Below are positions 1 to 36,739 of a stretch of DNA of 64,000 bases, in pieces; position 1 is the stretch's first letter; every line of letters starts with the position of its first letter. The DNA lies in the NCBI GenBank assembly GCA_002269645.1, contig NIVC01001936.1:156776-220775 (forward strand). The letters are read 5' to 3'. This DNA comes from Macrostomum lignano (lineage: Eukaryota). The position numbers and the translations under genes were made by a program. Under the pieces are notes generated by a model. That model had not been told where the DNA came from and searched no databases. It saw only the letters and a program-made list of their open reading frames with translations.

Positions 1-434
1 CGCCGTCTCCATTCTGCCCCACCCTCTCCCCTTTTTTGTGTATTATTTAAATGCTAGCCCTGAGCGGGCTGCGCTCCACGTTTGCTCTCTATTGGTGTCC
101 GCTTCGTTCTTACTGTTTTTGCGTTCATCGGCGTACCTCTGCCTTCGCGTGCCAATAACTGCTTCGGGCCAATAAACGCTTCGTGTTAACTCGATATATC
201 AAGAGGAGGTGAGCTCGAGCTTTCGTTCTTCTGGGTTGCCGCGTGGGGCCGGGATCTGCAGGGACCTGGGAACGGTGAACTCTCGCCGATCCCAGGGTGT
301 TCGGTCAGGCGAACTCTCGCCGAACCGAGCGAGACAGGGTAGGAATAGCCGGGGTGAGGGCTGGGACAGGGGTGTCTCAGGCGGGAGGGCCCGAACCTTG
401 ACCCGTCCAGCGGCCATTAGGCCGAGACACAACA
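1..434 (+). repeat. 5' LTR (partial, begins before the window)
   Basis: Near-identical to 7939-8400; ends ...GACACAACA immediately before the PBS; TATTTAAA near 43-50 and AATAAA at 171-176. Confidence 0.92.
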
Positions 435-436
435 AG

Positions 437-454
437 TGGTGCCGTGACCAGGAT
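437..454 (+). promoter_or_regulatory. Primer-binding site, tRNA-His type
   Basis: TGGTGCCGTGACCAGGAT starts 2 nt after the LTR end; it is complementary to the tRNA-His 3' end (..ATCCTGGTCACGGCACCA). Confidence 0.88.
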
Positions 455-558: not shown

Positions 559-1539
559 ATGGCCAATTTAGACGATCTGATTGACGCCCTGACGGCGCGT
601 CTGCAAAACGAACTTAATGTGGCACAGCGGGTGCCGAGGCCAAATAAGTACGTGCCCACACAGGACTTTGCCCTTTGGATGCAACAATTCACAGGGTATT
701 GTGAGGCGGCTCATATTCTAGGGGATCAGCGCAAGCAGGCGCTGCTCAGTCTGCTTGACTTTAATACTGCTTTTAAGGCTGTTGCGAATCTTGAGTTGGC
801 CGATGATTTGCCGTATGATGAGTTTGTTGAGCAGCTAGAAGCTAGGTTTGATGAGAATAGGACTGCTCAAGATTACAAGACCGAGTTCCAGAGTAGGAAT
901 CAGAAAGATGGCGAGCCCATTGAAGAATATGCAGACGTGCTCAAGGAGCTTATGAGAAAATCGTACCCAATGCTGCCAGCGGCCCAGCGAGAAGAGTTGG
1001 TGAAAGACAGGTTTTTGAAGGGGATTCGGGTGCCAGCCCGGGTGCTGGAGAGCGTGCTGCTGCAAGCGCCAGAGACGCTCCAGGACGCTATTAGGCGGGT
1101 GCGTCAAGTGAGGGCATCGTTGGCTCTGATGGAGCCCGAGGGTAAGCGAGCTGTGCACATGGTGGGGGGTCAGGCCGCAGCGGCTGGCAACAGCCAGGAG
1201 TCCAGGGCAGCCGCCGAGATAGCAGCTCTGAAAGCGGAAGTGGCTCAGCTAAAAGCAAGTGCTGCAGCGCCCACTGCGCCGATGGCGACAGCAAGGTCTG
1301 AGCAGCCAAAAGTGAGCTTGCAGCATCGAGCCCCTGAGCAGAGTCAGCAGCAGAGGCAGTGTGGTCGGTGCCTGCAGACAGGGCATACTACGGCTCGGTG
1401 CCGTAATGCAGTGGTCTGCCGGGAGTGTGGCCAGTCAGGGCACATGCGCAACCGCTGCTATCGTCGGTGGGACCAGTCGGGTTCGGGAAACGGATTGGGG
1501 GCTCGGCCGGGGCACCCGTCCGGGCCCCAGCGTCAGTGA
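559..1539 (+). CDS. gag: Gag with two CCHC zinc knuckles (326 aa from ATG 559)
   Basis: Retrotransposon gag motif FQSRNQKDGEPIEEYADVL; knuckles CGRCLQTGHTTARC and CRECGQSGHMRNRC. Confidence 0.95.
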   Translation: MANLDDLIDALTARLQNELNVAQRVPRPNKYVPTQDFALWMQQFTGYCEAAHILGDQRKQALLSLLDFNTAFKAVANLELADDLPYDEFVEQLEARFDENRTAQDYKTEFQSRNQKDGEPIEEYADVLKELMRKSYPMLPAAQREELVKDRFLKGIRVPARVLESVLLQAPETLQDAIRRVRQVRASLALMEPEGKRAVHMVGGQAAAAGNSQESRAAAEIAALKAEVAQLKASAAAPTAPMATARSEQPKVSLQHRAPEQSQQQRQCGRCLQTGHTTARCRNAVVCRECGQSGHMRNRCYRRWDQSGSGNGLGARPGHPSGPQRQ

Positions 1540-1549: not shown

Positions 1550-4500
1550 ATCGGGGGCCGCGGCCTTGTCCCAGAGTGTGCTGAGTCGGCAGGGACTGGG
1601 CTATGTGGATGCACAGTTTAGGTTTGGGCCCCGATTGCATGTCTGCTTGACAGCGGGGCCACCGTGTCGTTGTTAAGCAACCGTTTCCTGAAGTCTAAAA
1701 AGCCGACATTGACTTATTGCCGAATTTGCCGAATTTTTCCGTTTTCGCTGCCAATGGGGAACCGATTGCTGTACATGGAATGGTGACGATGAAGTTTTCT
1801 GTTGGGGACACCGAGTTTTTGCACGAGTTCGCTGTGGTCGAGGAACTGGCTGTGGCATGTATTCTGGGCACTGACTTTTTCGTGAGACACGGGATGGCGA
1901 TTGACTTTGCTAGGAATTGCTTGCAGACTGCATCCTGTGTGTATCCGTTTCGCTTATCAGCAGATAAGCCGCGTCTTTGCCGTCTGGTGCTGAGTCAGCC
2001 TGAGCAGTTCAATGCAGGTCAAGAGAAGGTGGTGCACGTCAGGTTGCAGAGAAGGGTTCCCTCTGGGGTTCAGTTCCTAGGCATTGTGGAGTCTGAGAGG
2101 AGAGTGAGTAACGAGCAGATGGTGGCCAGATCGGTACAGATGCCTGACGGGGACGGTCGCTTGGCTGTCAGGGTGTTGAACACGTCAGGATGCAGTCTGT
2201 CATTAAGGAAGGGAAGCCGAATTGGTTGGTTCTCCCCAGTGGCGGCCCAGCAGCCAGCTGGGTGGCAGGTGAACTCGGTGGAGAGTGTCCGAGACGACTG
2301 GAACCCCCTCAGCGATGTCAAGGAGTGGGGAGGATGTGGCCTGACGGGCGATGAGAAGCACGAGTTTGAGCGCCTGATGGCTCGGAATCGTGATGTCTTT
2401 GCCAGGGATAGCTCGGAGTTGGGACAGTCACACTTGATGGCGCATGAGATTGACACCGGCAACGCCAAGCCAGTAAGTCAGCCCGCGCGTAGGATTCCAC
2501 CGCGCTGGAAGGAGGAAATTGATAAGCAGGTTGATGAGTTGTTGCAGCAGGATCGCATCTATCCCTGCTACTCTCCGTGGGCGAGCCCGATCGTGCCGGT
2601 TAAAAAGGCCGACGGTAGCTTGAGGTTGTGTCTAGACTATCGGCGCCTTAACGAGGTCACAGTGCCAGATCCTTACCCACCGCCGCGGATGGACGAGACG
2701 CTTGATGCGCTAGGAGGGAACTGTGTTTTCTCGACGATGGATCTGGCCTCCGGCTATCATCAGTGCCCGATTGAGCCGAAGGACCAGTTGAAAACGGCGT
2801 TCGTGGTACCCAACAGGGGTCAGTTCGCCTGGAAGTGCATGAGTTTTGGCTTGCGCAATGCTCCCGCTACGTTCGCCAGGCTAATGTCTATGGCCCTGTC
2901 TGAGGTTAACTGGAAGGAGTGCCTGGTGTACTTTGACGATATAGTCGTGTTCGCCAAGTCGGTGGGTCAGCATCTCGAGCGATTGAAGCATGTTTTCCAG
3001 TGCCTGAGGGATGCCAATGTCAAGCTGAAGCCCGCCAAGTGTGTGTTCCTCGCAGAGCGGGTGAAGTTTCTGGGCCACATCGTCTCTCAGGAGGGGATCG
3101 CAACGGATCCGAGCAAGTGCGAGGAGATCCAGAATTGGCCGAGGCCATGTAGCGCCAAGAAGGTGCAGGCATTCCTGGGTACGTGCGCCTACTATCAGTC
3201 ATTTATCCCGCAGTTTTCAGAGATTGCAGCGCCGCTGTATAGGTTAACCGCAGACGGAGTGAAGTTTGAGTGGGGTAGTGAAGAGGAGAGCTCGTTTTGC
3301 AGGCTGAAAGACGCTTTGTGTTCACCGAATGTGATGGCATTCCCGGATTTTTCGCCTGGTGCCGGGGAGTTCATCCTCGACACGGACGCCAGTTCGCGCG
3401 TCGGGCTGGGAGCCGTCCTGTCACAGCGTCAAGCAGATGGCCGTGAGAAGGTGATCGCTTACGGGTCTAGGATGATTCATGCGGCGGAGAAAAATTATTG
3501 CACCACCAGGTTAGAGTTGCTTGCCGTCGTGCACTTCGTCAAAAAGTATAGGTACTATTTGTTAGGTAGAAAGTTCACTGTTCGTTCAGACCACAAAGCT
3601 TTGCAGTGGCTAGCCAGTCTGAAGGACGTAGAGGGTCAGTGCGCAAGGTGGCTTGAGTCGCTCCAGAACTTCGACTTTGAGATCATTCACAGGCCAGGCA
3701 AGGAGCACGGCAACGCTGATTCGCTGTCTCGCAAGTACCGAAAACACGCTGGCCATGAGAGCTGCCCTAGCTGCCAGTTTAGCGAGAATGTGCCAGTAGT
3801 GAACGCGGTGTTTGGCAGTGGGCTGTCTTCGAAGGAAGTCCAGCAGGCGCAAGTGGCCGAGAAGAAGCTTGCAGCTGTCCGCTCCTATGCCCTGGACCCG
3901 GGTTCGAACCCCAGTGCGCCTAGAGTGATGTCGTGGGAGGAGCGTGTGCTGTGGGCACAACGGCAGCTGATAAGAGTAGAGTCTGATCTGTTGTATTTTC
4001 AGAGTCCCGGGAGTGGGTGCCAGAAAAAGATCTTGCTGCCGCCGGCTTTGCTGCCGAAAGTGCTCAGTGAGCTTCATGATGGGGTTGCAGGAGGGCACCT
4101 TGGGGTTAGGAAGACACAAGAGAAAGTGAAGGCGAGATACTGGTGGCCGGGGCTGAGTCGTTCCGTGGAAGAGTATTGCCGGAGCTGTGTCCACTGTGCG
4201 AAGGCGAAGCCTGGGCGCAGCAACCGGGCGCCTTTGCAGCCAATCTGCTCGGAAGGAGCTTTCCAGAGGATCATGAGTGACATTGTCGGGCCGTTGCCCA
4301 AGTCCAGAGGTGGCAATCGATTCGTGCTGACAATCCAGGATTCTTTTACTAAGTGGCCGGTGGCGGTGCCCTTGTCCAATCAGCGAGCCCCGACGGTGGC
4401 GCGAGCGATTTTTGATCACTGGATTGCGCACTTTGGTTGTCCTGAATTTCTAGTCACCGATAAGGGCACCAATTTTGAGTCGGCTTTGATGAAGCAGTTG

Positions 4501-5420
4501 TGTCGGTTGCTTGCCGTTAAGAAATGCAGAACGTCCTCCTATCACCCGATGGCTGATGGTCAGGCTGAGAGTTTCAATAAGACGTTGAAGTCAATGATCA
4601 AGTGCAGGATGAGTGAGTCGGTGGGCGAAGGAGACTGGGAGGATCTGATCCACCCGTCTCTCATGGCGTACCGTAGCAGCGTTCACAGAGGCACGGGGTA
4701 CACCCCGTACTACATGCTGTACGCCAGGGAGATGCGGCTTCCAGTGGACATCGGAACCTTGCCTGAGTCCATTCCTGCCAGTGCTCCGGCGTATGTTCAG
4801 TCATTAGGTAATAGTCTGGCTGAGGCTCATTCGCAGGTGCGGACCAACCTGCAGCAGTACCAGAGGAAACAGAAAGTGCTGTACGACTCAAGGGTGCGAG
4901 GCCCGGCCATAGAAGTGGGGATGCCGTCCTAGAATACTCGCCTGCGCTGCAGGCAGGGGAGGCAGCCAAGTTCCATTGCAATTGGAAGGGGCCGGCGAAG
5001 GTGTTAGAGAAGATATCCGATTTGAATTACCGGGTAAAGCACGCCAATAGGGGAAAGAGCAAAATAGTGCATTATAATAATTTGCGAAAAGTACCCGAGC
5101 GGCCTGAGCAGTTCAGGTTGATGAATAGGCATACGGCAGTGCAGCGCCGGTCGGCGCATCCGCCTGAGCCGGCAGGGTGCAGACAGGAGCCCGCGGGGCC
5201 GGCGACTAAAGAGCCGGAACTTGAGGAGGAGGAGGAGTTTTACTCGTATGTGGTGCCACCAGTTGCCGTTGGGCCTCGGCATGGGATAGTAGGGCCGGGA
5301 ACGCCAGTTGCGCCATGCGCACCGGTGGCTCCAGCGGCGCCAGCCGTGTCTCCGCGCAGACTGCGCGAGCGTCGGGGTGTGCCCCCAGCGTATTACGGGA
5401 ATCCGGTATTGTATCGTTAA
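1486..5420 (+). CDS. pol: Pol (PR-RT-RNaseH-IN), interrupted by three single-base deletions
   Basis: Protease LLDSGATVSLL (1643-1675, off-frame), RT LCLDYRRLN and YFDD, RNase H LDTDAS, integrase HHCC and DDE (SDIVG, TDKG, QAESFN), C-terminal WKGPAKV (GPY/F-like) off-frame after 4920. Confidence 0.95.
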
Positions 5421-5757
5421 TTCGCAGTGGGCTCACAAGGCGGTCGTCATAAATTGATTTTTAATATGCACTTGTATTAATGCCTCCACGCTGTTGTCTA
5501 TGGTAGAAAGCCTAAAATAACCTAAAATGAAAAAAATGATACAACCCCAAAGCACAAAAAAATCATAAAATGGAACGCATGGAAAGCACGTAAAAAACAT
5601 TAAATGTATTAAAATTACAAAGTATGCTAGGCAAGAAGCGTTCTCAATCGTATTGTAAAATAAACATGTCATAGGATGGGTCAGGTCAGGGTCACAGTTG
5701 CTAGTCCGCAAGGCATAGGTAGTGATTGGGTTTAAATGTCATCATTGCAGGAGGACC

Positions 5758-7434
5758 ATGTCGTCGCCAACGACACCGACTGATTTGTATGGCGTGTTAG
5801 GCGTGGGTCGGACTGCTAACTCTGCGGAGATTGAGGCAGCGTGTAGTCGTCTGTACTCAAAGCGGCCCCGCGTCTGTCCTGCCGAGGTAGAGTCTCCGGA
5901 GTCTCAGCGAGACGTGATGGCGATGTGCGTTTTATCTGACCCAGTGTTTCGGGAAGTATACGATCGGGTTGGGGAGGCAGCGTGTCAAGGGGTGTTAAAG
6001 TTCGCCTACTTTTTCAATCCTCCCCCTGACGTTGAGTTGCCCGAGCAGGTCAGGTTAGCTTTGGCTAGTCTTAAGGGAAGCGCCGCAGGGGAAGCTCCAG
6101 TTCACGCGGAGATCCCAGCCGAGTTATTGGCTCCGGCTGCGCTTGCTGAGTGTAGGCGGCTGAGGGGTGCGCTGCTGGCGCGGTTGAGGGCTGGGGATAG
6201 TGAAGGAGCTTGCCTGGTGGTTCAGGAGGTGGCGAGGTTTCTTGATGGGGCTGGTGTGAGTGTGCCTGAGCAGTTGTCTAGATTCTTAGCAGTGTCTGTG
6301 TCGTTTCTGTGCAATCAGTATGGGCGGAAGAGAGGTTCTGGTGGTGGCTCCGGGAGGTGTCGGAGGGTCCCGCCTTCGGTGCTGCAGGCGGCGTTTGAGT
6401 GCGTGTTGTTGGCTGTGCGGGGTTTTGAGCTGTGTGAGTTGGGGGGTCCCTTGTTGGGGAGGCTCCGGGGTCTGTCTCTCTTAGTGGATCCTGGCCTCGC
6501 GCGGCGCCCGGAGGAGGGGAGTGACGGGCCGCACCTTTCGCAGACTCCGCTGACGGCCCAGCGCGACTTGGCGACCGAAGAGTTAACGGGTGTCGACCCC
6601 GAGCAAGTACGACCGGCCGACACGGTCCAGGAGGTCTCCCCCCGTGACGACCCGAATCAGCGCAAGGTCAGCTCGGCTAAGCGTCTCGTCGATGCAAAGG
6701 CATACCTAACGAGGCTGGGCCGGTCGATTCAGCCCGAGGACCTTCGTGGCGTGCGTCGATGTCTAGCGGCTGTAAACTCGCCGTACTGCCTGCGTCTAGA
6801 ATGTCCCGTGGTCCGACCACTGCTGCAAGACCGACGGATCGTGTTCGCCCTGGGCCTGAAGGCCAGTGCTGCACCGTGGTGGCCATCGCTGCGAGACGAT
6901 GTACGACGATTTCTAGCGGGTAGCTGGCCGCGTGTCGTGGCGGTCGGCGAAGTCGAGCTCAATTGGGACGCTGAGAGGTCGCAGCGCCAGGACCAGTTAA
7001 CGGCGGCGATGGAGCAGTTCTTGCTTGCCAAGGAGTTCGGCCTGCCGGTTTTGTTCCGAGTTGAAGGCGGCGAACCTGCCTGGGCGGTCGCCCTAGGATT
7101 CCTCCGGCAGCCGGAGTTTCAAACGATGAGCGTCATGCTGGCCGAGGACCTGGACTTGCCGGAGGCCGTCGAGGCCGCGCTGGTGAGCAAGTGCCACGGG
7201 GTCTTCTTCGAGGTGTCCGCTCGGTGCCGAGGATCCCCGCGAGCGGTCCAACGGGCTAAGCGTCTCCCGCGGCAGCGCCTGCTAGTGACATCGGCCGCAC
7301 CGTTTGGTGGAGACCCCAAGGACCCGACAGCCATCAAGTTCGTGCCGGAAGCCCTAGCGGACAGTGAATGTGATCGCAGGTACTGGACTCGACTGTTTGC
7401 GACCAACTGTAGTAGATTTTTTGGCCGATTGTAG
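5758..7434 (+). CDS. ORF3: J-domain-like (no HPD) + linker + TatD-like TIM barrel (metal ligands lost), 558 aa
   Basis: N-terminal DLYGVLGVGRTANSAEIEAA...VLSDPVFREVYDRVGE (5782-5976) follows the DnaJ consensus. C-terminal LVDAKAYL, VVAVGEVELN, LAKEFGLPVLFR, LPRQRLLVTSAAP, NCSRFF (6682-7431) follows the TatD motif order. Confidence 0.8.
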   Translation: MSSPTTPTDLYGVLGVGRTANSAEIEAACSRLYSKRPRVCPAEVESPESQRDVMAMCVLSDPVFREVYDRVGEAACQGVLKFAYFFNPPPDVELPEQVRLALASLKGSAAGEAPVHAEIPAELLAPAALAECRRLRGALLARLRAGDSEGACLVVQEVARFLDGAGVSVPEQLSRFLAVSVSFLCNQYGRKRGSGGGSGRCRRVPPSVLQAAFECVLLAVRGFELCELGGPLLGRLRGLSLLVDPGLARRPEEGSDGPHLSQTPLTAQRDLATEELTGVDPEQVRPADTVQEVSPRDDPNQRKVSSAKRLVDAKAYLTRLGRSIQPEDLRGVRRCLAAVNSPYCLRLECPVVRPLLQDRRIVFALGLKASAAPWWPSLRDDVRRFLAGSWPRVVAVGEVELNWDAERSQRQDQLTAAMEQFLLAKEFGLPVLFRVEGGEPAWAVALGFLRQPEFQTMSVMLAEDLDLPEAVEAALVSKCHGVFFEVSARCRGSPRAVQRAKRLPRQRLLVTSAAPFGGDPKDPTAIKFVPEALADSECDRRYWTRLFATNCSRFFGRL

Positions 7435-7662: not shown

Positions 7663-7674
7663 GGAGGGGGAGGA
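7663..7674 (+). promoter_or_regulatory. Polypurine tract
   Basis: GGAGGGGGAGGA directly abuts the TGTTG start of the 3' LTR at 7675. Confidence 0.88.
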
Positions 7675-8400
7675 TGTTGGGCTGCGCCCTTCCAGTGTGT
7701 ATGTACTCGTACTTTTGTTTTCAGTTTTCATGCCACCCCGCCCCGTCCCCCGTCTCGCGCCCGGGCCAGGGTTTGTGAGAGGCGTAAGTCTCAACCCTGG
7801 CCTAGCCCTTTGCACCCAGCCCCCGGCCCAATCTCTGTCCAATCTGGGTGCCCCCCCCTCCCTCGTTGCCCGCCTCACCCTGGGGCTGCTCGTATTGGCT
7901 GGCTGGCTGATAAGCCGGCTGGGCCCCAGGGTTTGGCTCGCCGTCTCCATTCTGCCCCACCCCTCCCCCTTTTTTGTGTATTATTTAAATGCTAGCCCTG
8001 AGCGGGCTGCGCTCCACGTGGCTCTCTATTGGTGTCCGCTTCGTTCTTACTGTTTTTGCGTTCATCGGCGTACCTCTGCTTCGTGCCAATAAACGCTTCG
8101 TTAGTAACTCGATATATCAAGGAGAGGTGAGCTCGAGCTTTCGTTCTTCTGGGTTGCCGCGTGGGGCCGGGATCTGCAGGGACCTGGGAACGGTGAACTC
8201 TCGCCGATCCCAGGGTGTTCGGTCAGGCGAACTCTCGCCGAACCGAGCGAGACAGGGTAGGAATAGCCGGGGTGAGGGCTGGGACAGGGGTGTCTCAGGC
8301 GGGGAGGGAATAGCCGGGGTGAGGGCTGGGACAGGGGTGTCTCAGGCGGGGAGGGCCCGAACCTTGACCCGTCCAGCGGCCATTAGGCCGAGACACAACA
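7675..8400 (+). repeat. 3' LTR (726 bp), also serving as 5' LTR of the second copy
   Basis: TGTTG...CAACA terminal inverted repeat; matches 1-434; AATAAA at 8088-8093; internal 47-bp tandem duplication at 8260-8353. Confidence 0.92.
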
Positions 8401-8447
8401 AGTCTCGGCCTGTTGTTTGCTTCGGTTGTCTCTGTGCTTTTGTAGCC

Positions 8448-9256
8448 ATGGCCAATTTAGACGATCTGATTGACGCCCTGACGGCGCGTCTGCAAAACGA
8501 ACTTAATGTGGCACAGCGGGTGCCGAGGCCAAATAAGTACGTGCCCACACAGGACTTTGCCCTTTGGATGCAACAATTCACAGGGTATTGTGAGGCGGCT
8601 CATATTCTAGGGGATCAGCGCAAGCAGGCGCTGCTCAGTCTGCTTGACTTTAATACTGCTTTTAAGGCTGTTGCGAATCTTGAGTTGGCCGATGATTTGC
8701 CGTATAATGAGTTTGTTGAGCAGCTAGAAGCTAGGTTTGATGAGAATAGGACTGCTCAAGATTACAAGACCGAGTTCCAGAGTAGGAATCAGAAAGATGG
8801 CGAGCCCATTGAAGAATATGCAGACGTGCTCAAGGAGCTTATGAGAAAATCGTACCCAATGCTGCCAGCGGCCCAGCGAGAAGAGTTGGTGAAAGACAGG
8901 TTTTTGAAGGGGATTCGGGTGCCAGCCCGGGTGCTGGAGAGCGTGCTGCTGCAAGCGCCAGAGACGCTCCAGGACGCTATTAGGCGGGTGCGTCAAGTGA
9001 GGGCATCGTTGGCTCTGATGGAGCCCGAGGGCAAGCGAGCTGTGCACATGGTGGGGGGTCAGGCCGCAGCGGCTGGCAACAGCCAGGAGTCCAGGGCAGC
9101 CGCCGAGATAGCAGCTCTGAAAGCGGAAGTGGCTCAGCTAAAAGCAAGTGCTGCAGCGCCCACTGCGCCGATGGCGACAGCAAGGTCTGAGCAGCCAAAA
9201 GTGAGCTTGCAGCATCGAGCCCCTGAGCAGAGTCAGCAGCAGAGGCAGTGTGGTCG
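8448..9256 (+). pseudogene. gag: Truncated gag of the second tandem copy
   Basis: Near-identical to 559-1367; breaks off at TGGTCG in the first zinc knuckle and is followed by AT-rich host DNA. Confidence 0.93.
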
Positions 9257-9489: not shown

Positions 9490-9610
9490 ACTTGCAGAGC
9501 TGAAGGGAGGCAGTTGCAGAGCTGAAGAGAGACAGTTGCAGAGCTGAAGGGAGACAGGGAGGGTCGTAGACCGCCTCGATGCGCTCATTGCGGGGACACG
9601 GCTGAAGCGA
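9490..9610 (-). repeat. Short 22-bp minisatellite plus a remnant of an F-box/LRR last exon
   Basis: Units GCAGAGCTGAAGGGAGGCAGTT; 9558-9610 translates on minus to FSRVPRNERIEAVYD, homologous to FRRVPRDERIEAAFE. Confidence 0.7.
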
Positions 9611-9645
9611 AACAAGCAAATTTTTTTAGTTTTATAGCCAATCAG

Positions 9646-12584
9646 TCACTGTCCTTCAAGAGCTGTCGCCTCCGGCCTCCACAAGCGGCTGAGGTCCACC
9701 CTGTGCTCGAAGGCCGCCTCGATGCGCTCATCGCGGGGGACTCGCCTGAAGCCCTCCAGTTGGAGCTCAGTGAGCCACGGACAGCCGCTGGCGATGCTGG
9801 CGAGGGCGACGGCAGTCAGCTGGCTGCAGTCGGACAGGCTGAGCCGCCGCAGGCCCCTGGCGACCGGACTAGCGCACAGGTCGGCCACCGCCTCATCAGT
9901 GAGCACGGACTTCCTGCAGTAGATGGCCCAGAACTCGTACAGATCAGGCGTGGCAGCTTCGAAGCTCGGAAGGTTTCGCAGCTTCACCCAGGCCTGGCGG
10001 GTCAGGCAGCTGCAGTCATGGAAGCGGAGGCAGCGCAGGCGGGGCAGCCGGGAGAGCAGAGCCGCCAGCAGGTCGTCGGTGCCCGCCAGCAGCTCAACAT
10101 GGGCCAACGCTGCAGTTGAATGCAATTTATAGCAGCAGTCTGAGCATCTGGGAGAGCAGCAGTCTGAGCATCTGGGAGAGCAGCAGTCTGAGCATCTGGG
10201 AGAGCAGCAGTCTGAGCATCTGGGAGAGCAGTAGTCTGAGCATCTGGGAGAGCAGCAGTCTGAGCATCTGGGAGAGCAGCAGTCTGAGCATCAATCCGGG
10301 TATCTACCAAACGAGCGGCAGGGTGAGCGGGACTCACCTGGACAGCCACTCAGAGTGTCAGACAATTGTAAGCTCCATGGAACATAAAATAATGATCCCG
10401 TGAGCTGCAGCCGCTGAAGCCCTGGTGGCAGCGGACAGCCCAGCTCAGCTCCGAAAAAGCACTGATTTCCGTGAATCAGCACTCGAAGGTCCGCAAGGCC
10501 GGCAGGCAGGCAGCGGAGGATCTGGCGGAGTTGCTCATCTGAGTCACGGTAAATCCCTAAATCGAGGCTCTCAAGCGAGGGCAGGCTGGGCAGCAGCCAC
10601 AATACTACCTTCGTATTCCCGTTACGAAAGCTCAGGTGTCTCAGGCCGGGCACGGGCGCAGGGTGGCTATCGGGCCTGAGATCGAAGAATCCGTCCCAAT
10701 CAGTCACTCGCAGCTCCGTCAGGTTCGGCGCGATGCTCAGCACGCGGGGCAACTCTAGAGGGCGGCGAGTTCAGCGAGGGCATTTAACGAAGGACCGCCG
10801 GCAGTCAAGCAGAAGCAGTTCAATAATTCTAAGGAAATTTATTTAAACCCAACTGTTGCTTGAAAATGCATCAACGGGCTTCAACCGTTTCCAATTTATC
10901 AGCTCAAAACTTGATATTTTTTACCGCCTGAGCTTCCGAAGATGAAGTGAAGCCAGTGTGGCTCGGGTCCCCAATGGTTTCACAAGTCCATCGGCCTGGA
11001 TTCAGAATAAGCACTGATACAGAGGAGTGGCAAGCGCAAAGTCCTGCAATTGCCGTTCTTACAATCTTTTTAGTCGTCTTTAAAAGACATTTTTTGGACG
11101 AGTGACTCTAAAGGCGGGGGGCGGCCCGTGCTGTGAGATGGGGAATTGAGCAGCGCTGATGCATTCTAAGCAGCACCGGGGCTTCAAGCAGATTCCCATG
11201 CACGGGTGCCAGGTGAATATTTAAATAAGCCAAGTGAAAAAGGGGAAGGCACTGACGGTTGGCTGCCAACCGCACCGACAACACGGAGAGCCGGGGACAC
11301 TCTGACAGATCATCAAGGAGCTCAGAAGCATCGAGGTTCGGCAGGTACAGCGCCGAGAGGCGGCCGACGAGCTTAACGAACAGCTGGCGCACCTCACGAT
11401 CGCGCAGCCAGTGATGCAGGCCAATAACATCTGTAACGCAGTTAATTTCCAGCAGCGAGAGGCGCGGGCAGCCGTACAGCAGGCAGCTCAGCGAGGAGGC
11501 CGACAGCGCACTGCCGTAGCCGAGAAGGCGAAGCTCCTGCAGGTTGCGGCAGCAGCGGGAAGCCACGGTCACTGCAGTGTCTCCGTCAGTGTTCCGCAGG
11601 CTGAGGCAGGTGAGGCTGGCGGATGCAGCCAGAAGCAGTCGCAGCCGCAGAAGTGAGTCGGCTGTCGACCGCCGGCGCTTGGGAGTCAGATTTCCTGCCG
11701 AGATCTCCCGCACGCTGCCGCCCAGCCAGTCTCTGAGCCGCTCCATCAGCTCGGCATCTGCGGTGCGGCCGTCAATGCTAATTTTGCGCCACAGCCGCGG
11801 CTGCGTGGCGACCCGCCGCCAGCGCCTGCTCAGCTGAGCGCACCGGCCGAGGCTGGTCTGGTCCAGCTCGGACAGGATCTGCGTGAGCAGCTCCTCTGGC
11901 AGCTGCTCGATCAGACAGGGACTGCCAGGCTGCGGGAGTTTGGATTAGAAACAGAAGGGACAGCTCAGGATAATTCAGGACTGTCCCAGTCTCACCCACT
12001 GCCCCAGTCTCACACACTGCTCAGCCCAGATCCCACGTCAGGTCACAGCTCACACTCAGCCCAGATCCCACATCAGGTCACAGCTCACACTCAGCCCAGA
12101 TCCCACATCAGGTCACAGCTCACACTCAGCCCAGATCCCACATCAGGTCACAGCTCACACTCAGCCTAGATCCCACATCAGGTCACAGCTCACACTCAGC
12201 CCAGATCCCACATCAGGTCGCAGCTCACACTCAGCCCAGATCCCACATCAGGTCGCAGCTCACACTCAGCCCAGATCCCACATCAGGTCACAGCTCACAC
12301 TCAGCCTAGATCCCACATCAGTTCGCAGCTCACACTCAGCCCAGATCCCACATCAGGTCCCAGCTCACACTCAGCCCAGATCCCACATCAGGTCGCAGCT
12401 CACACTCAGCCCAGATCCCACATCAGGTCGCAGCTCACACTCAGCCTAGATCCCACATCAGGTCACAGCTCACACTCAGCGTGGACTCCGAGGTCCCCCG
12501 CTCGTCTTCACCGGCCGCCTCAGCCGCCTCCAGCCGCAGAGACTTCGGCGCCGGACCCTCTTGACTCGCGCAGGCCTCCGCCAT
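9646..12584 (-). CDS. F-box/LRR protein, paralog P1 (4 exons, about 554 aa)
   Basis: Exons 12584-12474, 11929-11257, 10754-10338, 10109-9646 with GT-AG sites in compatible phases; F-box EQLPEELLTQILSELDQTSLGRCAQLSRRWRR; LRRs such as LRRLSLSDCSQLT. Confidence 0.82.
10135..10290. repeat. 24-bp minisatellite in P1 intron 3
   Basis: Unit TCTGAGCATCTGGGAGAGCAGCAG, about 6 copies. Confidence 0.95.
12009..12480. repeat. About 37-bp minisatellite in P1 intron 1, containing the splice donor
   Basis: Unit approximately CACACTCAGCCCAGATCCCACATCAGGTCACAGCT, about 13 copies; the minus strand reads CTGAGT|GTGAGC. Confidence 0.93.
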
Positions 12585-13516: not shown

Positions 13517-15571
13517 TCACCAGGGAAAATCGTCCTCAGACCAGCCACCGTTCAGCTCAACGCTCTGCTCGAAGGCAGCCCGAAGGTCTTCAGCTTCGTC
13601 AGCGCAGGAGCGCCACCGGAGGCTCAGGCGGGTCAGCAGCGGGCAGCCGCTGGCGATGCTGGCCAGCGAGGCGGCCGTCAGCTGACTGCTGAGCTCAGAC
13701 GACAAAAGCAGCCGCCGAAGTCGCCTGGCAACCGGACTGGCGCACAGGTCGGCCACCGCACCATCGGTGAGGCTGGAATAGGCGCACTGGTGAGCCTGGA
13801 GCTCGTGCAGGTCGGGTGAGGAGGCGGCGAGGCCCTGCAGGTCTCGGAGGTTCGCCCAGGCCTGGCGGGTCAGGCGGCTGCAGTCGAAGAAGCGAAGGCA
13901 GCGCAGGCGGGGCAGCCGGGAGAGCAGAGCCGGCAGCAGGTGGTCATCGCTGCACGCTTGGAGAGCGAGGTGGGTCATGCCTGCAGTGGGGAGTGAGGTG
14001 GGTCAGGCCTGCAGTGGGGAGTGAGGTGGGTCAGGCCTGCAGTGGGGAGTGAGGTGGGTCATGCCTGCAGTGGGGAGTGAGGTGGGTCAGGCCTGTAGAG
14101 GGGAGTGAGGTGGGTCAGGCCTGTAGAGGGGTGTTAGGTCGGTAACGCTAGCAGAGATGGGAATGTGAGCAATAAGAGCAACACCTGCAAAAAGAGTGAG
14201 CATCCTAATGACTCACCTGAGCAGCCTGACAGCGGATCTGTCTGCCGCAGGATCCAATCGGTGTCAAAGGCGGACCCGGTGAGCTGCAGACGCCGCAGGC
14301 TCAGAGGCAGCGGGCCGCTCAGCTCGGCCTCATCATCCGCTCCCAGCTGCTCCAGAAAGTGCAGCCGAAGGTCCGCCAGGTCGCCGGGCAGGCAGCGGAC
14401 GATGCGGCGGAAGTCCTCGCCGAGTATGCCGGACGAGACGGTGCTGAAGCTGCTGAGTGCCGGGAGGCTGGGCAGCAGCTCCAGCAACATCTCGGGGACT
14501 CGGACTCGACCGCCAGGCGGGCCGCCGCCGATGCTGAGCCGCCGCAGGCTGGGGAACGGCGGGAAGTTCAGCATGGCGGCTTCATCCTGGCTGCTGAGCG
14601 TCTCAACATGCAGGTCGGTCAGGTTCCGGGCGCTGCTGAACACCGTCTGCAGCTCTGGGTGCAGGTGGGCGGAGAGGTGCGGGGCTCGCGAGCTGAGACC
14701 CTCAGGATCGGCAGGCTGGGGACTCACCAGGAAGGCTGAGCTGGTAAACAGACAGGCTGAGCAGCAGAGGGCATTCAGGCAGCTCGCTGATGAGTTCCGC
14801 AGCTTCATCAAGAGAGATGCTGAGGCTGCTGAGGCGGCCAATAAGATCAAAGAGCAGCCAGCGAAAGTCTGGGTCCTGCCAGTCGCTGAGGACCCCCTTG
14901 TCGCTGAATTCCAGCAGCGAGAGGCGCGGGCAGCCGGACAGCAGGCTGCTCAGCGAGGCGGCCGACAGCGAATTCTGGCAGTCGGTGAGGCGCAGCTCCA
15001 GCAGGCCGAGGCAGCTGCGGCCCGCCTCCGTCACTGCAGCGTCGCCGCGCACCTCCCGCAGGCTGAGGCAGGTGAGGCTGGCGGATGCGGCCAACAGCAG
15101 TGGCAGCCGCTGCTCGGCTGTCAGCCCGCAGGCCGAGATCTCCCGCACGCTGCCGCCCAGCCAGTCTCTGAGCCGCTCCATCAGCTCGGCATCTGCGGTG
15201 CGGCCGTCAATGCGGATTTCGCGCCACAGCCGCGGCTGCGTGGCGAGCCGCCGCCAGCGCCTGCTCAGCTGAGCGCACCGGCCGAGGCTGGTCTGGTCCA
15301 GCTCGGACAGGATCTGCGTGAGCAGCTCCTCTGGCAGCTGCTCCAGCTGTAAGAAAGAAAACAGAATATTTGAAGAAACAGGCAGAAGCAACCGCCTCCT
15401 GTTTGCAAGAAGCAACAAAATTGAACAATGATGTAAAACTGCAGCAAAACTGCCCAGCATACGGTGCAGGCATCAACACTGGGTCATCGAGAAAATGCAT
15501 TTATTTTAACTTGACTGTTTGGTGGTTTTACAGGCTAACCACAACTGGCTTACAGGTAAACAGGATAACAT
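13517..15571 (-). CDS. F-box/LRR protein, paralog P2 (about 512 aa)
   Basis: Exons 15571-15554 (putative 18-nt first exon), 15346-14728, 14654-14217, 13980-13517; phases compatible; F-box plus LRRs. Confidence 0.8.
13980..14130. repeat. 28-bp minisatellite repeating the P2 last-exon splice acceptor
   Basis: Minus-strand unit GCCTGACCCACCTCACTCCCCACTGCAG, about 5 copies. Confidence 0.9.
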
Positions 15572-16104
15572 GTGACTTAAAGTAAGCATCAGATGTTAGG
15601 GAATGAGTCGGTAATACATATAGGAGTATTATAGGAGTACTATATGATAGGACATGAGAACTTTGAGCAGTTCTCATGTCCTATCATATAGGACATGAGA
15701 ACTGCTCAAAGGCGCAACAGCGCATTTTTGAGGAACTAGTCTCTCGACTAGGAATATAGTTAGCTTCTTTGGACAAACCCACTGAGTAGGGGGGCCGTAG
15801 CCCAGCGGTAGTGCAGCTGCTCTGGTGTGCCAGCGACCCAGGCTCGATTCCAAGTGCAGTAACTAACATTAATTTGGGACTGAATTGGAATCTCGGCTTG
15901 GCTCTGCTCGTGCAATTAACGGCCTTGAGAGCCAACCCCCCCCCAAGGCGCAGTGAAGTGTACATGCCTAACGATAATATAAAGTTAGGGCCGCTGTACA
16001 CTCCTGTGTGAGTGTGTGCCTGCGTACGTTTCCGCGCGCTTGTATGCCTGCTCAGGGGAGTCGGCGGAATGGGGAGTAATGCCTTTTGCCGGTTGTGTGC
16101 CTAA

Positions 16105-17990
16105 CTGTGGCGCACAATGAATTGAGACCACCAAGTAGAATTATTTTCTTTTTGGCATAGTGGTTGATAAACAAAATTTTTAAGTACTAAATTTGAAGTA
16201 AAACTTGTAAGAATATTACTTTATGTTCTTTGTATAGTATTTTGGTTCACTTTCCAGCAGTTCTTAGTTCATCAAAAAGCTCATATTTGAATGGGAAGTA
16301 CAGCTTTAGGTTTAACATTGAAATAAGACCATATACGAGCGTATAAATATTAGGGAAATTAGTAAGACAAATGCCACTGATATTAAACTAACTACTCTAA
16401 TACTTTGTGACATGTCCTTTGACCTAATCACAGAATTGCACCGCCTAGGCATGCTGTCCATCAGCTTCTGGCACACTTCTGCCGCGATGGCAGCCCACGA
16501 GTCCTCAATGATACGGTACAGCTGATCAAGGGAAGCTGGCTGCTGCCTCTGGATGTCCCGCTTGACCTAGTTCCACCAATTCTCAATCGGATTGAGGTCT
16601 GGTAACTGCGCTGGCCAGTCCATGGTGTGGATTTTGCTTTCAGCAAGTTATGCCTTCACGTCCTTGGAGGTGTGCTTTGGATAGTTGTCCTGCTGAAACT
16701 GCCAGCTGTTCACTGTACCCAGTGGCAGCACATCGACTGCCTCCGGTAGGTGGCTGCTGAGGATGTCACGGTACTTCGGACTGTTCATGATGCCCTCAAT
16801 GCGAGTTATTGACCTAGGTCCAGCTCTGGAGAGTGCAGCCCACACCATGTGACATTGCCACCATGGTACCAACGGTGCACCTGGGATCGAATTTCTCGCC
16901 GGCTCGGTGGCGCACATGCCGGCAGCCATCAGAACTAGTGCGGGAAAAATTGCTCTCGTCACTCTAGATGGTCTTGGCCCAGTCCTGGGGTGTCCAGCTT
17001 GCATGCTGCTTTGTCCAGTTCAAGCGCCGCTTCCGGTTTTTGTCGGAGATAAATGGCTTCTTCCTAGCGATGCGGCCATGCAGTCCGGCAGCTACCAGAC
17101 GGTGGCGGACAGTCATGGGTGCCAGTGGTGCAGCTGGACACCACTGGACACCTGAAGCTGACGGCTGATGTCCACAGCGGTGAGCCGAGGGTTGGACTCG
17201 GACATTCGCTCACTTCTTCGATCCACTCGGTGGTCAGTTTTCGGTGCCCCGCCAGGTCTTGGGGCACAGCTTGCGCTGCCAGTGCTGCTGAGGCGCTTGC
17301 TAGACACACGTTATCGACTTTCCCAGCTGCGTGGCTTTGGCACGTTGAGAAACCCTTGGTCGAACAGAGCCTTGATTTTCCTACACGACTCATGCGATAG
17401 AACTCCGCCTTCCCCATTCTATACAGGAGTTCAAGATCATTTTGTCCAAGGACTTCTAGACTAATAGGACGTAAAACTGAAAGATCGTGCAATTTTTGGA
17501 GGCCACGATTTCCTGGACAAAAATACTGCGAAGATAGGAAAAAATCAGTTTTTCGTCACAAAATCAGTGATTGTATTTGATCTGGGGCAGTGAAGACTAC
17601 CATTCTTTTGATTTAACATGCACAACATGTTATTCTATTATCTTTGAATTTTATGTCCTGTTAGTCTAGAAGTCCTTGACTTTGTCTTGGAGTAGCAGTG
17701 AATTAGATGTTTTGAACTTGCAGAATCAGCAGGGCCACTTTTATAGCACCCTTTAGCCCAATTATTTAAGTGGTCTTATTACTGTGTGACTTGCAATATT
17801 AGAAAGTGAGACAAGGGACTCCAAATAAGCACACTCAATCGCGATTAATGACTCAACACACACTGATCTTATTGATTAATACCGCGGTTATGTATAACTG
17901 ATTAGATTAAATGCTCTCGCAATCTGCGAAGGTTATGGAATTAAAAGTTCAAATTTGTGTTAAGTGGTCTTAATTCATTGTGCACCACTG
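16105..17990 (-). mobile_element. Degenerate Tc1-like DNA transposon
   Basis: About 28-bp TIRs (C[A/T]GTGG[T/C]GCACAATGAATT[A/G]AGACCAC), TA duplication; transposase pieces MVWAAL, FQQDNYPKHTS and frameshifted WPAQLPDLNPIENW. Confidence 0.9.
17447..17678. mobile_element. 232-bp MITE, probably hAT type, inside the Tc1 element
   Basis: About 38-bp imperfect TIRs CAAGGACTTCTAGACTAA...TTAGTCTAGAAGTCCTTG; 8-bp TSD ATTTTGTC/ACTTTGTC. Confidence 0.78.
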
Positions 17991-18099
17991 TATGTCGTTT
18001 TAAGTGCGCCAGGGTGCACACAACCCCCCTGCCTCTAATACTCGTAAAAAACCCCCCACTGAGTTGAACATTTTCCTTCTCTGAATGAGAGATGCAGAG

Positions 18100-18912
18100 A
18101 TGAAGGGAGGCAGTTGCAGAGCTGAAGGGAGGCAGTTGCAGAGCTGACGGGAGGCAGTTGCAGAGCTGAAGGGAGGCTGTTGCATAGCTGACGGGAGGCA
18201 GTTGCAGAGCTGACGGGAGGCAGTTGCAGAGCTGACGGGAGGCAGTTGCAGAGCTGAAGGGAGACAGTTGCATAGCTGAAAGTAGGCAGTTGCAGAGATG
18301 AAAGGAGACAGCTGCAGAGCTGAGGGGAGGGGAGGCAGTTGCAGAGCTTAAGGGAGAAAGTTGCAGAGCTGAAGGGAGTCAGTTGCAGAGCTGAAGGGAG
18401 ACAGTTGCATAGCTGACGGGAGGCAGTTGCAGAGCTGAAGGGAGACAGTTGCAGAGCTGAAGGGAGGCAGTTGCATAGCTGAAAGTAGGCAGTTGCAGAG
18501 ATGAAAGGAGACAGCTGCAGAGCTGAGGGGAGGGGAGGCAGTTGCAGAGCTTAAGGGAGAAAGTTGCAGAGCTGAAGGGAGGCAGTTGCAGAGCTGAAGG
18601 GAGACAGTTGCAGAGCTGAAGTGAGGCAGTTGCAGAGCTGACGGGAGGCAGTTGCAGAGCTGAAGGGAGACAGTTGCAGAGCTGAAGGGAGGCAGTTGCA
18701 TAGCTGAAAGTAGGCACTTGCAGAGATGAAAGGAGACAGCTGCAGAGCTGAGGGGAGGGGAGGCAGTTGCAGAGCTGAAGGGAGGCAGTTGCAGAGCTGA
18801 AGGGAGGCAGTTGCAGAGCTGAAGGGAGACAGTTGCAGAGCTGAAGGGAGGCAGTTGCAGAGATGAAGGGGAGACAGTTGCAGAGCTGAAGGGAGGCAGT
18901 TGCAGAGCTGGG
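18100..18912. repeat. 22-bp minisatellite, partly within the P3 reading frame
   Basis: Unit GCAGAGCTGAAGGGAGGCAGTT with variants. Confidence 0.95.
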
Positions 18913-30850: not shown

Positions 30851-31404
30851 CTGCCAGTTTCCACTTCACAGCCGTCCTCCGCCAGAGCTGCCGTCTCCGA
30901 CCTCCACAAGCCGCTGAGGTTCACCCGCTGCCCGAAGGCCGCCTCGAGGCGCTCGTCTCTGGCGATGCAGTCGAAGCCGCAGAGATCCAGGTTGAGCAGC
31001 CACGGGCAGCCTCTGGCGATGCTGGCGACAGAGGCGGCGGTCAGCCGGTCGCATTTTGACAGGCTGAGCCGCCGCAGGCCCCTGGCGACCGGACTGGCGC
31101 ACAGGTCGGCCACCGCCTCTCTCCGTGAGCACGGACTTCCTGCAGCAGATGGCCCAGAACTCGTGCGGGTCGGGCATGGCAGCTCCGAGGCTCCGAAGGT
31201 CTCGCAGGTTCGCCCAGGCCTGGCGGGTCAGGCGGCCGCAGTCGTAGAGCTGGAGGCGGCGAAGGCGGGGCAGCCGGGAGAGCAGAGCCGGCAGCAGCTC
31301 GTCGTTGCAGCCTCCGAAAGCCAGGACGGTCAGCTGGGCTGCGGGCGAGGGTTGCAAAATGGGCGGCTTCGACACACACACTGATAGTGCCTTGAAAGGA
31401 CCTA

Positions 31405-31745
31405 TTTGTCTCATCTCCCCAAGCTCTCCCATCTCTCCAACCTCTCATCTACCCCAACCTCTCATCTCCTCCAACCTCTCATTTCCCCAACTTCTCATCT
31501 TCCCAACTTCTCATCTCCCCAACCTCTCATCTTCCCAACCTCTCATCTCCCCAACCTCATCTTCCCAACCTCTTATCTCCCCAGCCTCTCTCATCTCCCC
31601 AACCTCATCTCCCCAACCTCTCATCTCCCCTACCTCTCATCTCCCCAACCTCTCTCATCTCCAAAACATCTCATCTCCCCAACCTCTCATCTCTCCAACA
31701 TCTCATCTCCCCTAGCTCTCATCTCCCCAAGCTCTCATCCCCAAT
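31405..31745. repeat. Degenerate ~16-bp pyrimidine-rich minisatellite in a P5 intron
   Basis: Unit approximately CTCTCATCTCCCCAAC. Confidence 0.88.
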
Positions 31746-32199
31746 CCCAATCGCCTCCCGAGCTCAGGCAGCTCACCCGAGCAGGCACTCAGGCCGGTCA
31801 GCAGCCCGGTAGTTTTGCTGCAGGGGTGGCCGGCCAGCTGCAGCAGGCGCAGACTCAGCGGCAGCGCTCTGTCCAGGCCGTCACACAGCGCATCCTTCAG
31901 CTCCAGCTCCTGGAGGCCCTGCGACAGGCGGGAGACAACCAGGCGGCAGCCCGCGGCGTCCAGCGCACTGCAGGAGGTCAGCCGTAGCCGCCAGAGCAGC
32001 GGGCTACGGTCGAGCAGGGCCGCTTAGCTTCATGCACCAGGAACCGGCACGGGAGTGGAGGCGGCCGCCGCAGCCGTCTGCCAGCACAGCGGCCAGGCTG
32101 TCCGAAAATTTCTGGTTCATCGTCAGCTCGGACAGGCGGGGCAGCCGACGCAGCAGCTCGCGCAGTTCTTGTGAATGAGGAGACCAACAGCTTCGGCTT

Positions 32200-36565: not shown

Positions 36566-36739
36566 GTTACTTGAAGTAAATATAAGATTAGGGGGTTGCG
36601 TCAGCAATACTATTTTGAAACTGCTCACTCTGCTCATGGGGCACAACAGTGCGCATTTTTGAAAAAAGTCCCTTATTGGGGAATGCAGTTTCTTTAGATA
36701 AAAAAACAAATTTACACATTTTGCTGCTCCAAATTGTGA

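What the first reader, a model, noticed from the sequence alone, without database searches (positions are those of the whole stretch)
5758..7434. Gypsy retrotransposon carries a J-domain/TatD-like fusion as its third ORF
Seen: a 558-codon stop-free ORF lies between the end of pol (5420) and the PPT/3' LTR (7663/7675), so it is inside the element. Its N-terminus follows the DnaJ J-domain consensus and its C-terminal ~250 aa follow the TatD motif order. Established: this slot usually holds env in Gypsy elements with a third ORF; J-domains recruit Hsp70; TatD proteins are metal-dependent exonucleases. Inference: this is a non-env accessory protein built from captured host domains. It might protect, bind or process element cDNA, counter host defence, or chaperone particle assembly. 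I know of no described Gypsy lineage with this cargo but could not search.
Basis: partly seen in the sequence, partly recalled or inferred. Interest (0 to 1): 0.92.

Follow-up and report, generated by a model that had tools for sequence, protein, structure and literature searches.

The report
Flatworm retrotransposons carry captured chaperone-recruiting gene
A group of jumping genes in a flatworm carries, where a viral coat gene would normally sit, an extra gene built around a captured module that calls in the cell's Hsp70 chaperone, and in this copy that module and an attached nuclease-like part have both lost their usual working residues yet are still being conserved.

Summary
The 558-codon ORF3 (5758-7434) lies between pol and the 3' LTR of a recently transposed Gypsy family (14 of 14 two-ended copies have 4-bp target duplications). 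It has three folded parts: a J-domain-like N-terminus, a novel five-helix domain (X) and a TatD-fold barrel (Z 23.4). In this family the J domain lacks HPD. The barrel keeps only one of eight canonical TatD active-site residues, so it is probably not a working nuclease. All parts are under purifying selection (dN/dS 0.06-0.46). J+X is the conserved core. It is ORF3 in eight further Gypsy families of this genome (integrase 46-68% identical), all with HPD. The TatD barrel is added in three related families and a chromodomain in another. Outside this genome I found only Macrostomum lignano gene models and one unnamed 51%-identical fragment. Ten literature searches showed no such cargo. Best reading: a soluble, probably spliced accessory adaptor that aims host Hsp70 at nuclear nucleoprotein targets, for counter-silencing or intasome remodelling. 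Function, expression and splicing are inferred, not shown.

The parts
1..434 (+). 5' LTR, 3' part; the LTR begins 260 bases before the window
   Evidence: contigs laid from four runs have loose ends at 434/435 and 7674/7675
209..214 (+). Candidate splice donor inside the 5' LTR (exon would end at 208)
   Evidence: consensus match; used by UniRef gene model P0008; no read joint seen; inferred
437..454 (+). Primer-binding site (tRNA-His-like; assignment recalled, not tested)
   Evidence: same motif in families B, C, E
559..1539 (+). gag (326 aa), CCHC knuckles
   Evidence: Retrotrans_gag E 7.8e-5, zf-CCHC weak
1699..5420 (+). pol (RT, RNase H, integrase, IN C-terminal domain), with a frame break near 4915-4930 in this copy
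5745..5750 (+). Candidate splice acceptor, 7 nt before the ORF3 ATG
   Evidence: three UniRef models enter ORF3 here; a similar pyrimidine-AG lies 0-16 nt before the first codon in A, B, C, D, E, G, H, I; not confirmed by reads
5758..7434 (+). ORF3, 558 aa, no transmembrane segment (highest 19-residue Kyte-Doolittle mean 1.49)
5782..5964 (+). J-domain-like region (aa 9-69), HPD absent in this family
6139..6495 (+). X domain (aa 128-246): five-helix bundle with a basic loop, shared by all J-ORF3 families tested, no named family or clear fold match
   Evidence: (pLDDT 88)
6682..7431 (+). TatD-fold TIM barrel (aa about 309-558) with 7 of 8 canonical active-site residues replaced; Glu398 kept
7663..7674 (+). 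Polypurine tract
7675..8400 (+). 3' LTR (TG...CA)
   Evidence: 95% to the 5' LTR over 655 nt, mostly indels
8411..9256 (+). Second, truncated copy of the leader and gag after the 3' LTR; this copy therefore has no matching target duplication
   Evidence: (99.6% over 846 nt)

Best explanation
ORF3 is a soluble accessory protein of a clade of Gypsy elements in this flatworm genome, probably made from a spliced subgenomic RNA like env. Its ancestral core is a class-B-like J domain, an acidic linker and the helical X domain. It most likely works as an adaptor. The X domain and whatever reader module is appended (a chromodomain in family I, a catalytically dead TatD barrel in families A, B, C) bind a nuclear nucleoprotein target. 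The HPD loop then makes host Hsp70 clamp onto that target and remodel or dismantle it. The likeliest targets are host silencing complexes on element chromatin or RNA, or the element's own integration complex. In the window's family A the HPD loop is lost, so this protein would bind without stimulating Hsp70, or hold its target through the X domain and the dead barrel. SHOWN: location, domain homologies, residue losses, distribution, purifying selection, recent transposition. INFERRED: splicing, protein expression, Hsp70 engagement, nuclear site of action, the target, and any benefit to transposition.
For: J+X occupies the ORF3 slot in nine families. HPD is present in B, C, D, E, F, G, H, I and absent only in A. 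Pfam DnaJ passes the cut-off in C, B, D, E, G, H, I (48-65 bits). X-domain homology passes leave-one-family-out tests in 7 of 7 groups (14.1-75.4 bits against shuffle maxima 4.2-11.2). The family-I ORF3 has a chromodomain (47.7 bits, cut-off 25.1) in 17 or more full-length stop-free copies, which points to chromatin. Purifying selection holds on every part: A subfamilies 0.28-0.33 over the whole ORF, B/C J 0.12, X 0.06-0.07, barrel 0.14. The integrase tree and the ORF3 tree both separate the TatD-bearing families from the rest (100/99 and 99/96). ORF3 diverges faster than pol (0.33 against 0.09 in A/A2), and it was lost in two close families, as expected of an accessory factor. Precedents read as passages: polyomavirus large T uses an HPD J domain to engage Hsc70 and needs it to act on pRB (PMC11720896); HSV ICP22 recruits Hsc70 without HPD (10.1101/671412); Arabidopsis J proteins partner methyl-DNA readers in gene activation and in silencing (PMC11694752).
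Against: No experiment or complex prediction links ORF3 to Hsp70 or to any target. The window's own protein lacks HPD. Only 1 of 9 families has a chromodomain; by recalled consensus its third aromatic cage position looks substituted, which I did not test. Families without ORF3 (L151, L152, L158) and copies missing most of it (L040-L042, L138) exist with near-identical LTRs (99.3-99.9% for L040-42 and L138), so ORF3 is not needed in cis. The X domain has no informative match (best Z 9.0, within the range the tool calls a common arrangement for helical bundles).
Confidence: 0.45

Rival explanations
1. ORF3 is a cytoplasmic co-chaperone that brings Hsp70 to Gag/Pol for particle assembly, maturation or uncoating. 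The add-on domains bind element RNA or cDNA inside particles.
For: This is the plainest use of an HPD J domain; HPD is conserved in 8 of 9 families. A dead nuclease fold could bind nucleic acid; catalytically inactive DEDD derivatives that keep RNA binding are noted in PMC5408684 (passage).
Against: It does not explain a chromodomain. A core assembly role fits poorly with complete loss in families close to A and D and with ORF3 diverging much faster than Gag and Pol.
Confidence: 0.22
2. The barrel is not dead but rewired. It keeps Glu398 and has gained element-specific conserved acidic and basic residues (Glu/Gln400, Glu463, Glu485, Arg/Gln434, Lys/Arg368) that form a new metal or nucleotide site, so in A, B, C it trims or protects cDNA or small RNAs.
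For: These positions are invariant or nearly so in the four element sequences (A, B, C, P0007) and differ from seven canonical TatD proteins. The barrel has dN/dS 0.14 (B/C) and 0.34-0.36 (A against B, C). In human TATDN1 only the Glu equivalent to 398 was needed for both activities; single changes at the other acids and two histidines were tolerated (PMC10085689, passages).
Against: Both HxH histidines (family A), the three other histidines and the E201 and D203 equivalents are replaced together. In E. coli TatD, E201A and D203A each abolished activity (PMC4176340, passages), and TATDN3 D218A cut it 30-fold. The new Arg/Glu pairs could simply brace an empty site. I could not inspect model coordinates.
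Confidence: 0.12
3. ORF3 is a decoy or dominant-negative inhibitor. It titrates a host J-protein/Hsp70 pathway (for example small-RNA loading) or a host TatD partner, and the HPD-less J plus dead TatD of family A is the end point of that path.
For: Both captured domains in family A have lost their working residues and are still conserved (J region dN/dS 0.13-0.36). Family A has a long ORF3 branch (1.84 against 0.13-0.27 for B and C).
Against: Eight families keep HPD, which argues for active stimulation there. No host target is identified, and the barrel profile scores the host's own TatD exons at 10 bits or less.
Confidence: 0.14
4. ORF3 is neutral captured cargo or an env replacement.
For: It sits in the env slot. 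Only 10 family-A copies have an unbroken frame. Most B and C copies are broken.
Against: dN/dS is below 1 in all 22 comparisons with an estimable dS and significantly so in all but one small one. No ORF3 among eight tested has a hydrophobic segment above 1.49. The domains are those of soluble intracellular proteins.
Confidence: 0.05

Closest known systems
Non-env ORF3s of bdelloid rotifer Juno/Vesta LTR retrotransposons (DEDDy exonuclease, GDSL esterase; PMC5408684, abstract, first part and passages read)
   Same: Captured cellular enzyme domains in the env slot of Gypsy-like elements; patchy gain and loss; two domains sometimes fused in one ORF3.
   Different: The rotifer ORFs keep their catalytic residues, and the paper reports no significant departure from neutrality within the genome. 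Here the core is a J domain plus a new helical domain, the enzyme fold has lost its ligands, and purifying selection is clear.
Polyomavirus large T antigen J domain (PMC11720896, passages)
   Same: N-terminal HPD J domain followed by a disordered linker and further domains in a parasite-encoded protein; a working analogy for aiming Hsc70 at host complexes.
   Different: No sequence relationship beyond the J domain, no helicase or origin-binding domain, DNA virus rather than retroelement. The function here is untested.
HSV-1 ICP22 J-like protein (10.1101/671412, passages)
   Same: Viral J-like domain without HPD that still recruits Hsc70; a model for family A.
   Different: Unrelated virus. Here the loss of HPD is recent and visible against eight sister families.
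TatD/YcfH/TATDN nucleases, HxH group II (PMC4176340, PMC10085689, passages)
   Same: TIM-barrel fold (Z 20.6-23.4 to eight TatD structures); the central glutamate; a remnant of the HxH motif in families B and C.
   Different: 7 of 8 active-site residues are replaced in family A and 6 of 8 in B and C; the barrel is fused to J and X; the donor is not identified.
Chromodomain-bearing Gypsy elements (chromoviruses; recalled, not tested)
   Same: A chromodomain carried by a Gypsy element.
   Different: In chromoviruses it ends the integrase. Here (family I only) it lies inside ORF3, between the J and X domains.
M. lignano Ty3/Mdg4 families of PMC12801592 (abstract, parts 1-2 of 6, keyword passages, Table S1 read; other supplements keyword-searched)
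   Same: Same species by the names; the paper lists Mag, CsRN1, Gmr1/Osvaldo and Mdg3/Micropia families, among which these elements probably fall.
   Different: The paper's main text has 0 occurrences of DnaJ, TatD, Hsp40 or ORF. Its heat-shock elements were not found in the LTR stretches I scanned. I could not place the elements in its clusters; Gmr1/Osvaldo is a guess from recalled primer-site usage.

Membership tests
Ty3/Gypsy LTR retrotransposon | LTR-PBS-gag-pol(RT-RH-IN order)-PPT-LTR with target-site duplication | tested here: met
   4-bp duplications in 14 of 14 family-A copies with both ends in the fetched stretch, 13 distinct sites. The window copy itself is rearranged at its 3' end.
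Named Gypsy clade (Gmr1/Osvaldo, Mag, CsRN1) | RT phylogeny with reference elements | not testable with these tools
   No reference element sequences were available from a tool.
env-bearing Gypsy elements | ORF3 with signal peptide, transmembrane anchor and fusion-protein homology | tested here: not met
   Highest Kyte-Doolittle 19-mer 0.55-1.49 in eight ORF3 sequences; Pfam and fold matches are to soluble domains. No dedicated signal-peptide predictor was run.
J-domain proteins (canonical JDP) | J-domain homology | tested here: met
   the window protein alone is below the Pfam cut-off
J-domain proteins (canonical JDP) | HPD motif | tested here: not met
   Absent in family A (20 of 20 in-frame copies). 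Present in B, C, D, E, F, G, H, I, so those qualify and the window protein is J-like.
J-domain proteins (canonical JDP) | Stimulates Hsp70 ATPase | not testable with these tools
   Needs biochemistry; no complex prediction was run.
TatD DNases | TatD TIM-barrel fold and sequence homology | tested here: met
   Z 23.4, rmsd 2.6, 229 aligned; Foldseek E 1e-6; profile E 3e-8 to YjjV
TatD DNases | Active-site set HxH (or GxN), H62, E91, H127, H152, E201, D203 (E. coli numbering from PMC4176340) | tested here: not met
   Window residues at these columns: K314, Y316, K368, E398, R434, A462, T511, A513; only E398 matches; all seven canonical TatDs aligned have the full set.
TatD DNases | Metal-dependent 3'-5' exonuclease or AP endonuclease activity | not testable with these tools
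   Needs an assay.
Host gene (domesticated or cellular DnaJ-TatD fusion) | Copy outside element context | tested here: inconclusive
   62 of 64 examined loci have pol/integrase remains upstream or an LTR downstream; L132 and L137 are fragments without identified element flanks. Many matches were not fetched.
Heat-shock-element LTR families of PMC12801592 | Canonical HSE in the LTR | tested here: not met
   0 exact or one-mismatch motifs in nine LTR stretches of families A-E; 0 exact in eight 4-kb stretches of G, H, I, K, M, whose LTRs may be incomplete.

The most novel reading that the evidence does not exclude
A whole Gypsy clade has evolved a modular, Hsp70-hijacking counter-defence protein, a retrotransposon counterpart of polyomavirus T antigen. 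A J domain powers host Hsp70 against silencing complexes, while interchangeable reader modules (chromodomain, dead TatD barrel) and a new helical domain aim it. The window's family shows the step at which it became a chaperone-independent decoy.
Probability: 0.3. Interest if true: 0.9.

Novelty: new variant of a known kind. Interest (0 to 1): 0.72.

Why it matters
Extra ORFs in LTR retrotransposons are known, but their functions in animals are mostly unknown. This one comes with a built-in, testable mechanism (HPD and Hsp70) and a natural comparison series in one tractable animal: J+X alone, plus chromodomain, plus dead TatD, HPD lost, and ORF3 lost. If it is a counter-silencing factor, it would be a rare element-encoded suppressor in an animal and would link proteostasis to transposon control in a species already shown to have heat-responsive LTR families. 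It also supplies a new helical domain and a conserved TatD pseudo-enzyme. For annotators, a large share of the lower-scoring DnaJ matches in this genome are transposon cargo.

Tried and rejected
Homologues elsewhere: the word search with the whole protein found none. phmmer over 1.84 billion representatives gave 14 hits: three M. lignano gene models, one 166-aa unnamed Logan protein at 51% identity that this genome does not encode, and generic DnaJ and TatD proteins. Profile searches with the N-terminal and barrel alignments returned only ordinary DnaJ and TatD proteins apart from that fragment, with only the top 8000 candidates scored. Metagenome and viral contig scans with the barrel alignment confirmed 0 of 598 and 0 of 83 pattern matches. 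ESM Atlas gave no usable hit for the whole protein and only weak, mixed HEAT-like hits for X at a recognition score below threshold. None of this proves absence from other animals.

Expression: no RNA holder is listed on record; 20 of 24 rows hold the stretch and their kind is guessed or unknown. Contigs of four runs cover the element evenly and show no LTR-to-ORF3 joint and no loose end at the acceptor; contigs drop rare forms, so this is not evidence either way.

X-domain fold: Foldseek had no match at E 0.001 or better; VIA best Z 9.0 to the CarH cap, not trusted. Pairwise BLASTP of the A and I X domains finds nothing; only the profile test links them.

Donor of the barrel: unresolved. Bacterial hits were selected by the same profile and the host exons are partial.

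The heat-shock-element link was rejected. My first target-duplication count (7 of 7) was biased by an LTR end taken one base too long and was redone. Earlier scan notes: three look-ups, nothing found. No complex prediction was run.

Literature: ten full-text searches. In the six aimed at this cargo or host (11, 34, 73, 74, 83, 99, plus 33 for the host) no listing described a J-domain or TatD ORF3; I saw most of these only as listings. Subscription journals and Repbase entries were not searchable. bioRxiv supplements were closed, and long spreadsheet cells of PMC12801592 are cut, so element annotations there could have been missed.

Full report
Observation. The window opens inside the 5' LTR of a Gypsy element: LTR to 434, primer-binding site at 437, gag 559-1539, pol 1699-5420 (RT, RNase H, integrase by Pfam; one frame break near 4915-4930), ORF3 5758-7434, purine tract 7663-7674 and 3' LTR 7675-8400. 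ORF3 is 558 stop-free codons. Alone it scores DnaJ at E 2.5e-3 and TatD at E 4.9e-5, both below Pfam's cut-offs. Proteins 97-100% identical to it are UniRef gene models labelled Macrostomum lignano, which is my only basis for naming the host.

A young, mobile family. The genome search gave 60 matches, ten of them full-length or nearly so with no stop. All 20 further family-A loci fetched (L049-L068) have pol directly upstream. Of those with both LTR ends in the stretch, 14 of 14 have a 4-bp target duplication at 13 different sites, and the LTR pairs are mostly over 99% identical. These are separate insertions, although copy counts may be inflated, because PMC12801592 (parts 1-2 read) calls the species' assembly redundant. 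Many frame breaks recur at the same places in different copies, and contigs from four runs differ from the window by single-base indels, so some breaks may be assembly errors. I did not resolve this.

Three folded parts. The AlphaFold model (7-row alignment, pLDDT 67) has a J-like N-terminus, a helical domain at 126-240, a disordered linker and a TIM barrel. The barrel matches TatD structures at Z 20.6-23.4, above other amidohydrolases at 15.4 or less (Foldseek agrees). The middle domain folded alone gives five helices at pLDDT 88 with no informative match. I call it X.

Both captured domains are degenerate here. No family-A copy has HPD (20 of 20 in frame, one shifted). At the eight TatD active-site columns, where seven canonical TatDs are invariant, the window has K, Y, K, E, R, A, T, A. 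Families B and C keep one more histidine. In E. coli TatD, E91, E201 and D203 are each essential (PMC4176340, passages). Against a firm 'dead' call, human TATDN1 tolerated single changes at all tested ligands except the E91 equivalent (PMC10085689, passages), which is the residue kept here, and the element sequences share new conserved acids at 400, 463 and 485.

The core is J plus X, across a clade. Divergent matches led to families B, C (J, X, barrel), D, E, F (J, X) and, from an integrase-guided sample, G, H, I. All eight have HPD in at least one copy. Family I adds a chromodomain (47.7 bits), in 17 or more full-length copies. Of 64 loci examined with ORF3 similarity (20, 18, 20, 5, and the window), 62 have pol or integrase remains upstream or an LTR downstream; L132 and L137 are fragments. 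The integrase sample was 10 of 40 stretches I had planned. Five carried J-ORF3, four did not (L151, L152, L158, L160), and one ended at its contig end. X homology holds in 7 of 7 leave-one-out tests, weakest for E and for A scored without A, B, C (14-15 bits against shuffle maxima of 9-11). The integrase tree (19 rows, midpoint root; L048 and L132 unreliable) separates A, K, B, C from the rest at 100/99 and puts ORF3-less K beside A and ORF3-less M beside D. The ORF3 tree groups A, B, C at 99/96. The simplest history, inferred and not root-tested, is one capture of J+X, one later gain of the barrel, one gain of the chromodomain, loss of HPD in A, and two losses of ORF3.

Selection. Nei-Gojobori counts: whole ORF3 among three A subfamilies 0.28-0.33 (p 3e-5 or lower); the HPD-less J region 0.13 (p 0.002) and 0.36 (p 0.14); B against C, J 0.12, X 0.06-0.07, barrel 0.14; H pair 0.28; D against F 0.35; E pair 0.23. 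Pol in A/A2 is 0.09. ORF3 is therefore maintained as protein, including its degenerate parts, but evolves faster than pol.

Expression. A pyrimidine-AG lies 0-16 bases before the first codon in all eight families where I looked, directly before ATG in G, H and I. The family-A LTR has a consensus donor at 209, and three UniRef models enter ORF3 at this acceptor, one from that donor. These are predictions. The read evidence is inconclusive and is given under Tried and rejected. No ORF3 has a transmembrane-like segment, so it is not env.

Mechanism. From established J-protein biology and the passages read (PMC11720896, 10.1101/671412, PMC11694752), the most economical model is an adaptor: HPD engages host Hsp70, while X and an exchangeable reader module choose the target. 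The chromodomain, the basic loop in X, the acidic linkers, the fast divergence and the dispensability point to a nuclear, host-facing role (0.45) over particle assembly (0.22), a decoy (0.14), a rewired nuclease (0.12) or neutral/env cargo (0.05). For the window's own protein the decoy or Hsp70-independent version is relatively more likely than for its sisters. None of the functional steps was shown.

Comparison and novelty. It is a Gypsy element by every structural test. ORF3 has the TatD fold but fails the active-site test, and it is J-like but fails the HPD test; its sister families pass that test. The closest described system is the rotifer non-env ORF3s (PMC5408684; abstract, first part, passages). 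I found no description of J-domain or TatD cargo in the searches listed under Tried and rejected, which cannot cover subscription journals or Repbase. Outside this genome there is one unnamed 51%-identical barrel fragment, so the known range is narrow. Verdict: a new variant of a known kind, with a surprising and directly testable cargo; interest 0.72.

Noticed in passing
window 8411-9256: A second, 99.6% identical copy of the leader and gag follows the 3' LTR and breaks off in the zinc-knuckle region; a rearranged tandem or an assembly artefact.
   Followed up: partly
L157 (G000:C330), ORF3 residues 150-200: A chromodomain inside ORF3 of family I, between J and X, in 17 or more copies; unusual placement compared with integrase-terminal chromodomains (recalled).
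   Followed up: partly
L040-L042, L138, L139, L039, L043, L044: Derivatives of families B and C that lack the J and X parts but keep the last 180-220 codons of the barrel; some have 99%+ identical LTRs, so deleted forms still moved.
   Followed up: partly
L151:1630-2900 region (G000:C23), family K: The closest sister of family A has about 1.2 kb of unrelated sequence between pol and the purine tract, with a 247-codon frame without Pfam match and a 150-codon antisense frame; no similarity to the J-ORF3 elements.
   Followed up: partly
L122, L126, L153, L156, L158 (3' untranslated regions): GC-rich short tandem repeats of variable copy number between ORF3 (or pol) and the purine tract in families D, G and M.
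   Followed up: no
L033/L034 and L031, start of ORF3: Family B has no in-frame ATG before the J domain; in B and C the acceptor-like AG is followed by TG, so the start codon may be split by the intron or be GTG.
   Followed up: no
genome-wide: A large share of the lower-scoring of the 150 listed DnaJ-family matches coincide with element ORF3 loci, which will inflate DnaJ gene counts.
   Followed up: partly
window 9600-11950 (minus strand) and repeats near 15000-21400 and 30900-37300: An F-box/leucine-rich-repeat gene (F-box-like E 7.9e-16) that recurs several times in the window among many minisatellites.
   Followed up: partly
window 38822-39821 and 16104-17991: Inverted-repeat pairs about 1.0 and 1.9 kb apart, possibly DNA transposon ends.
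   Followed up: no
L033:8168-9427 and L059:7559-8395: A different, A-rich integrase frame next to two of the Gypsy copies, only 23-26% identical to this pol; possibly another class of element.
   Followed up: no
L046:2030-3097: A 355-codon frame ending in a P-loop motif, beside a non-LTR-like element; not identified.
   Followed up: no
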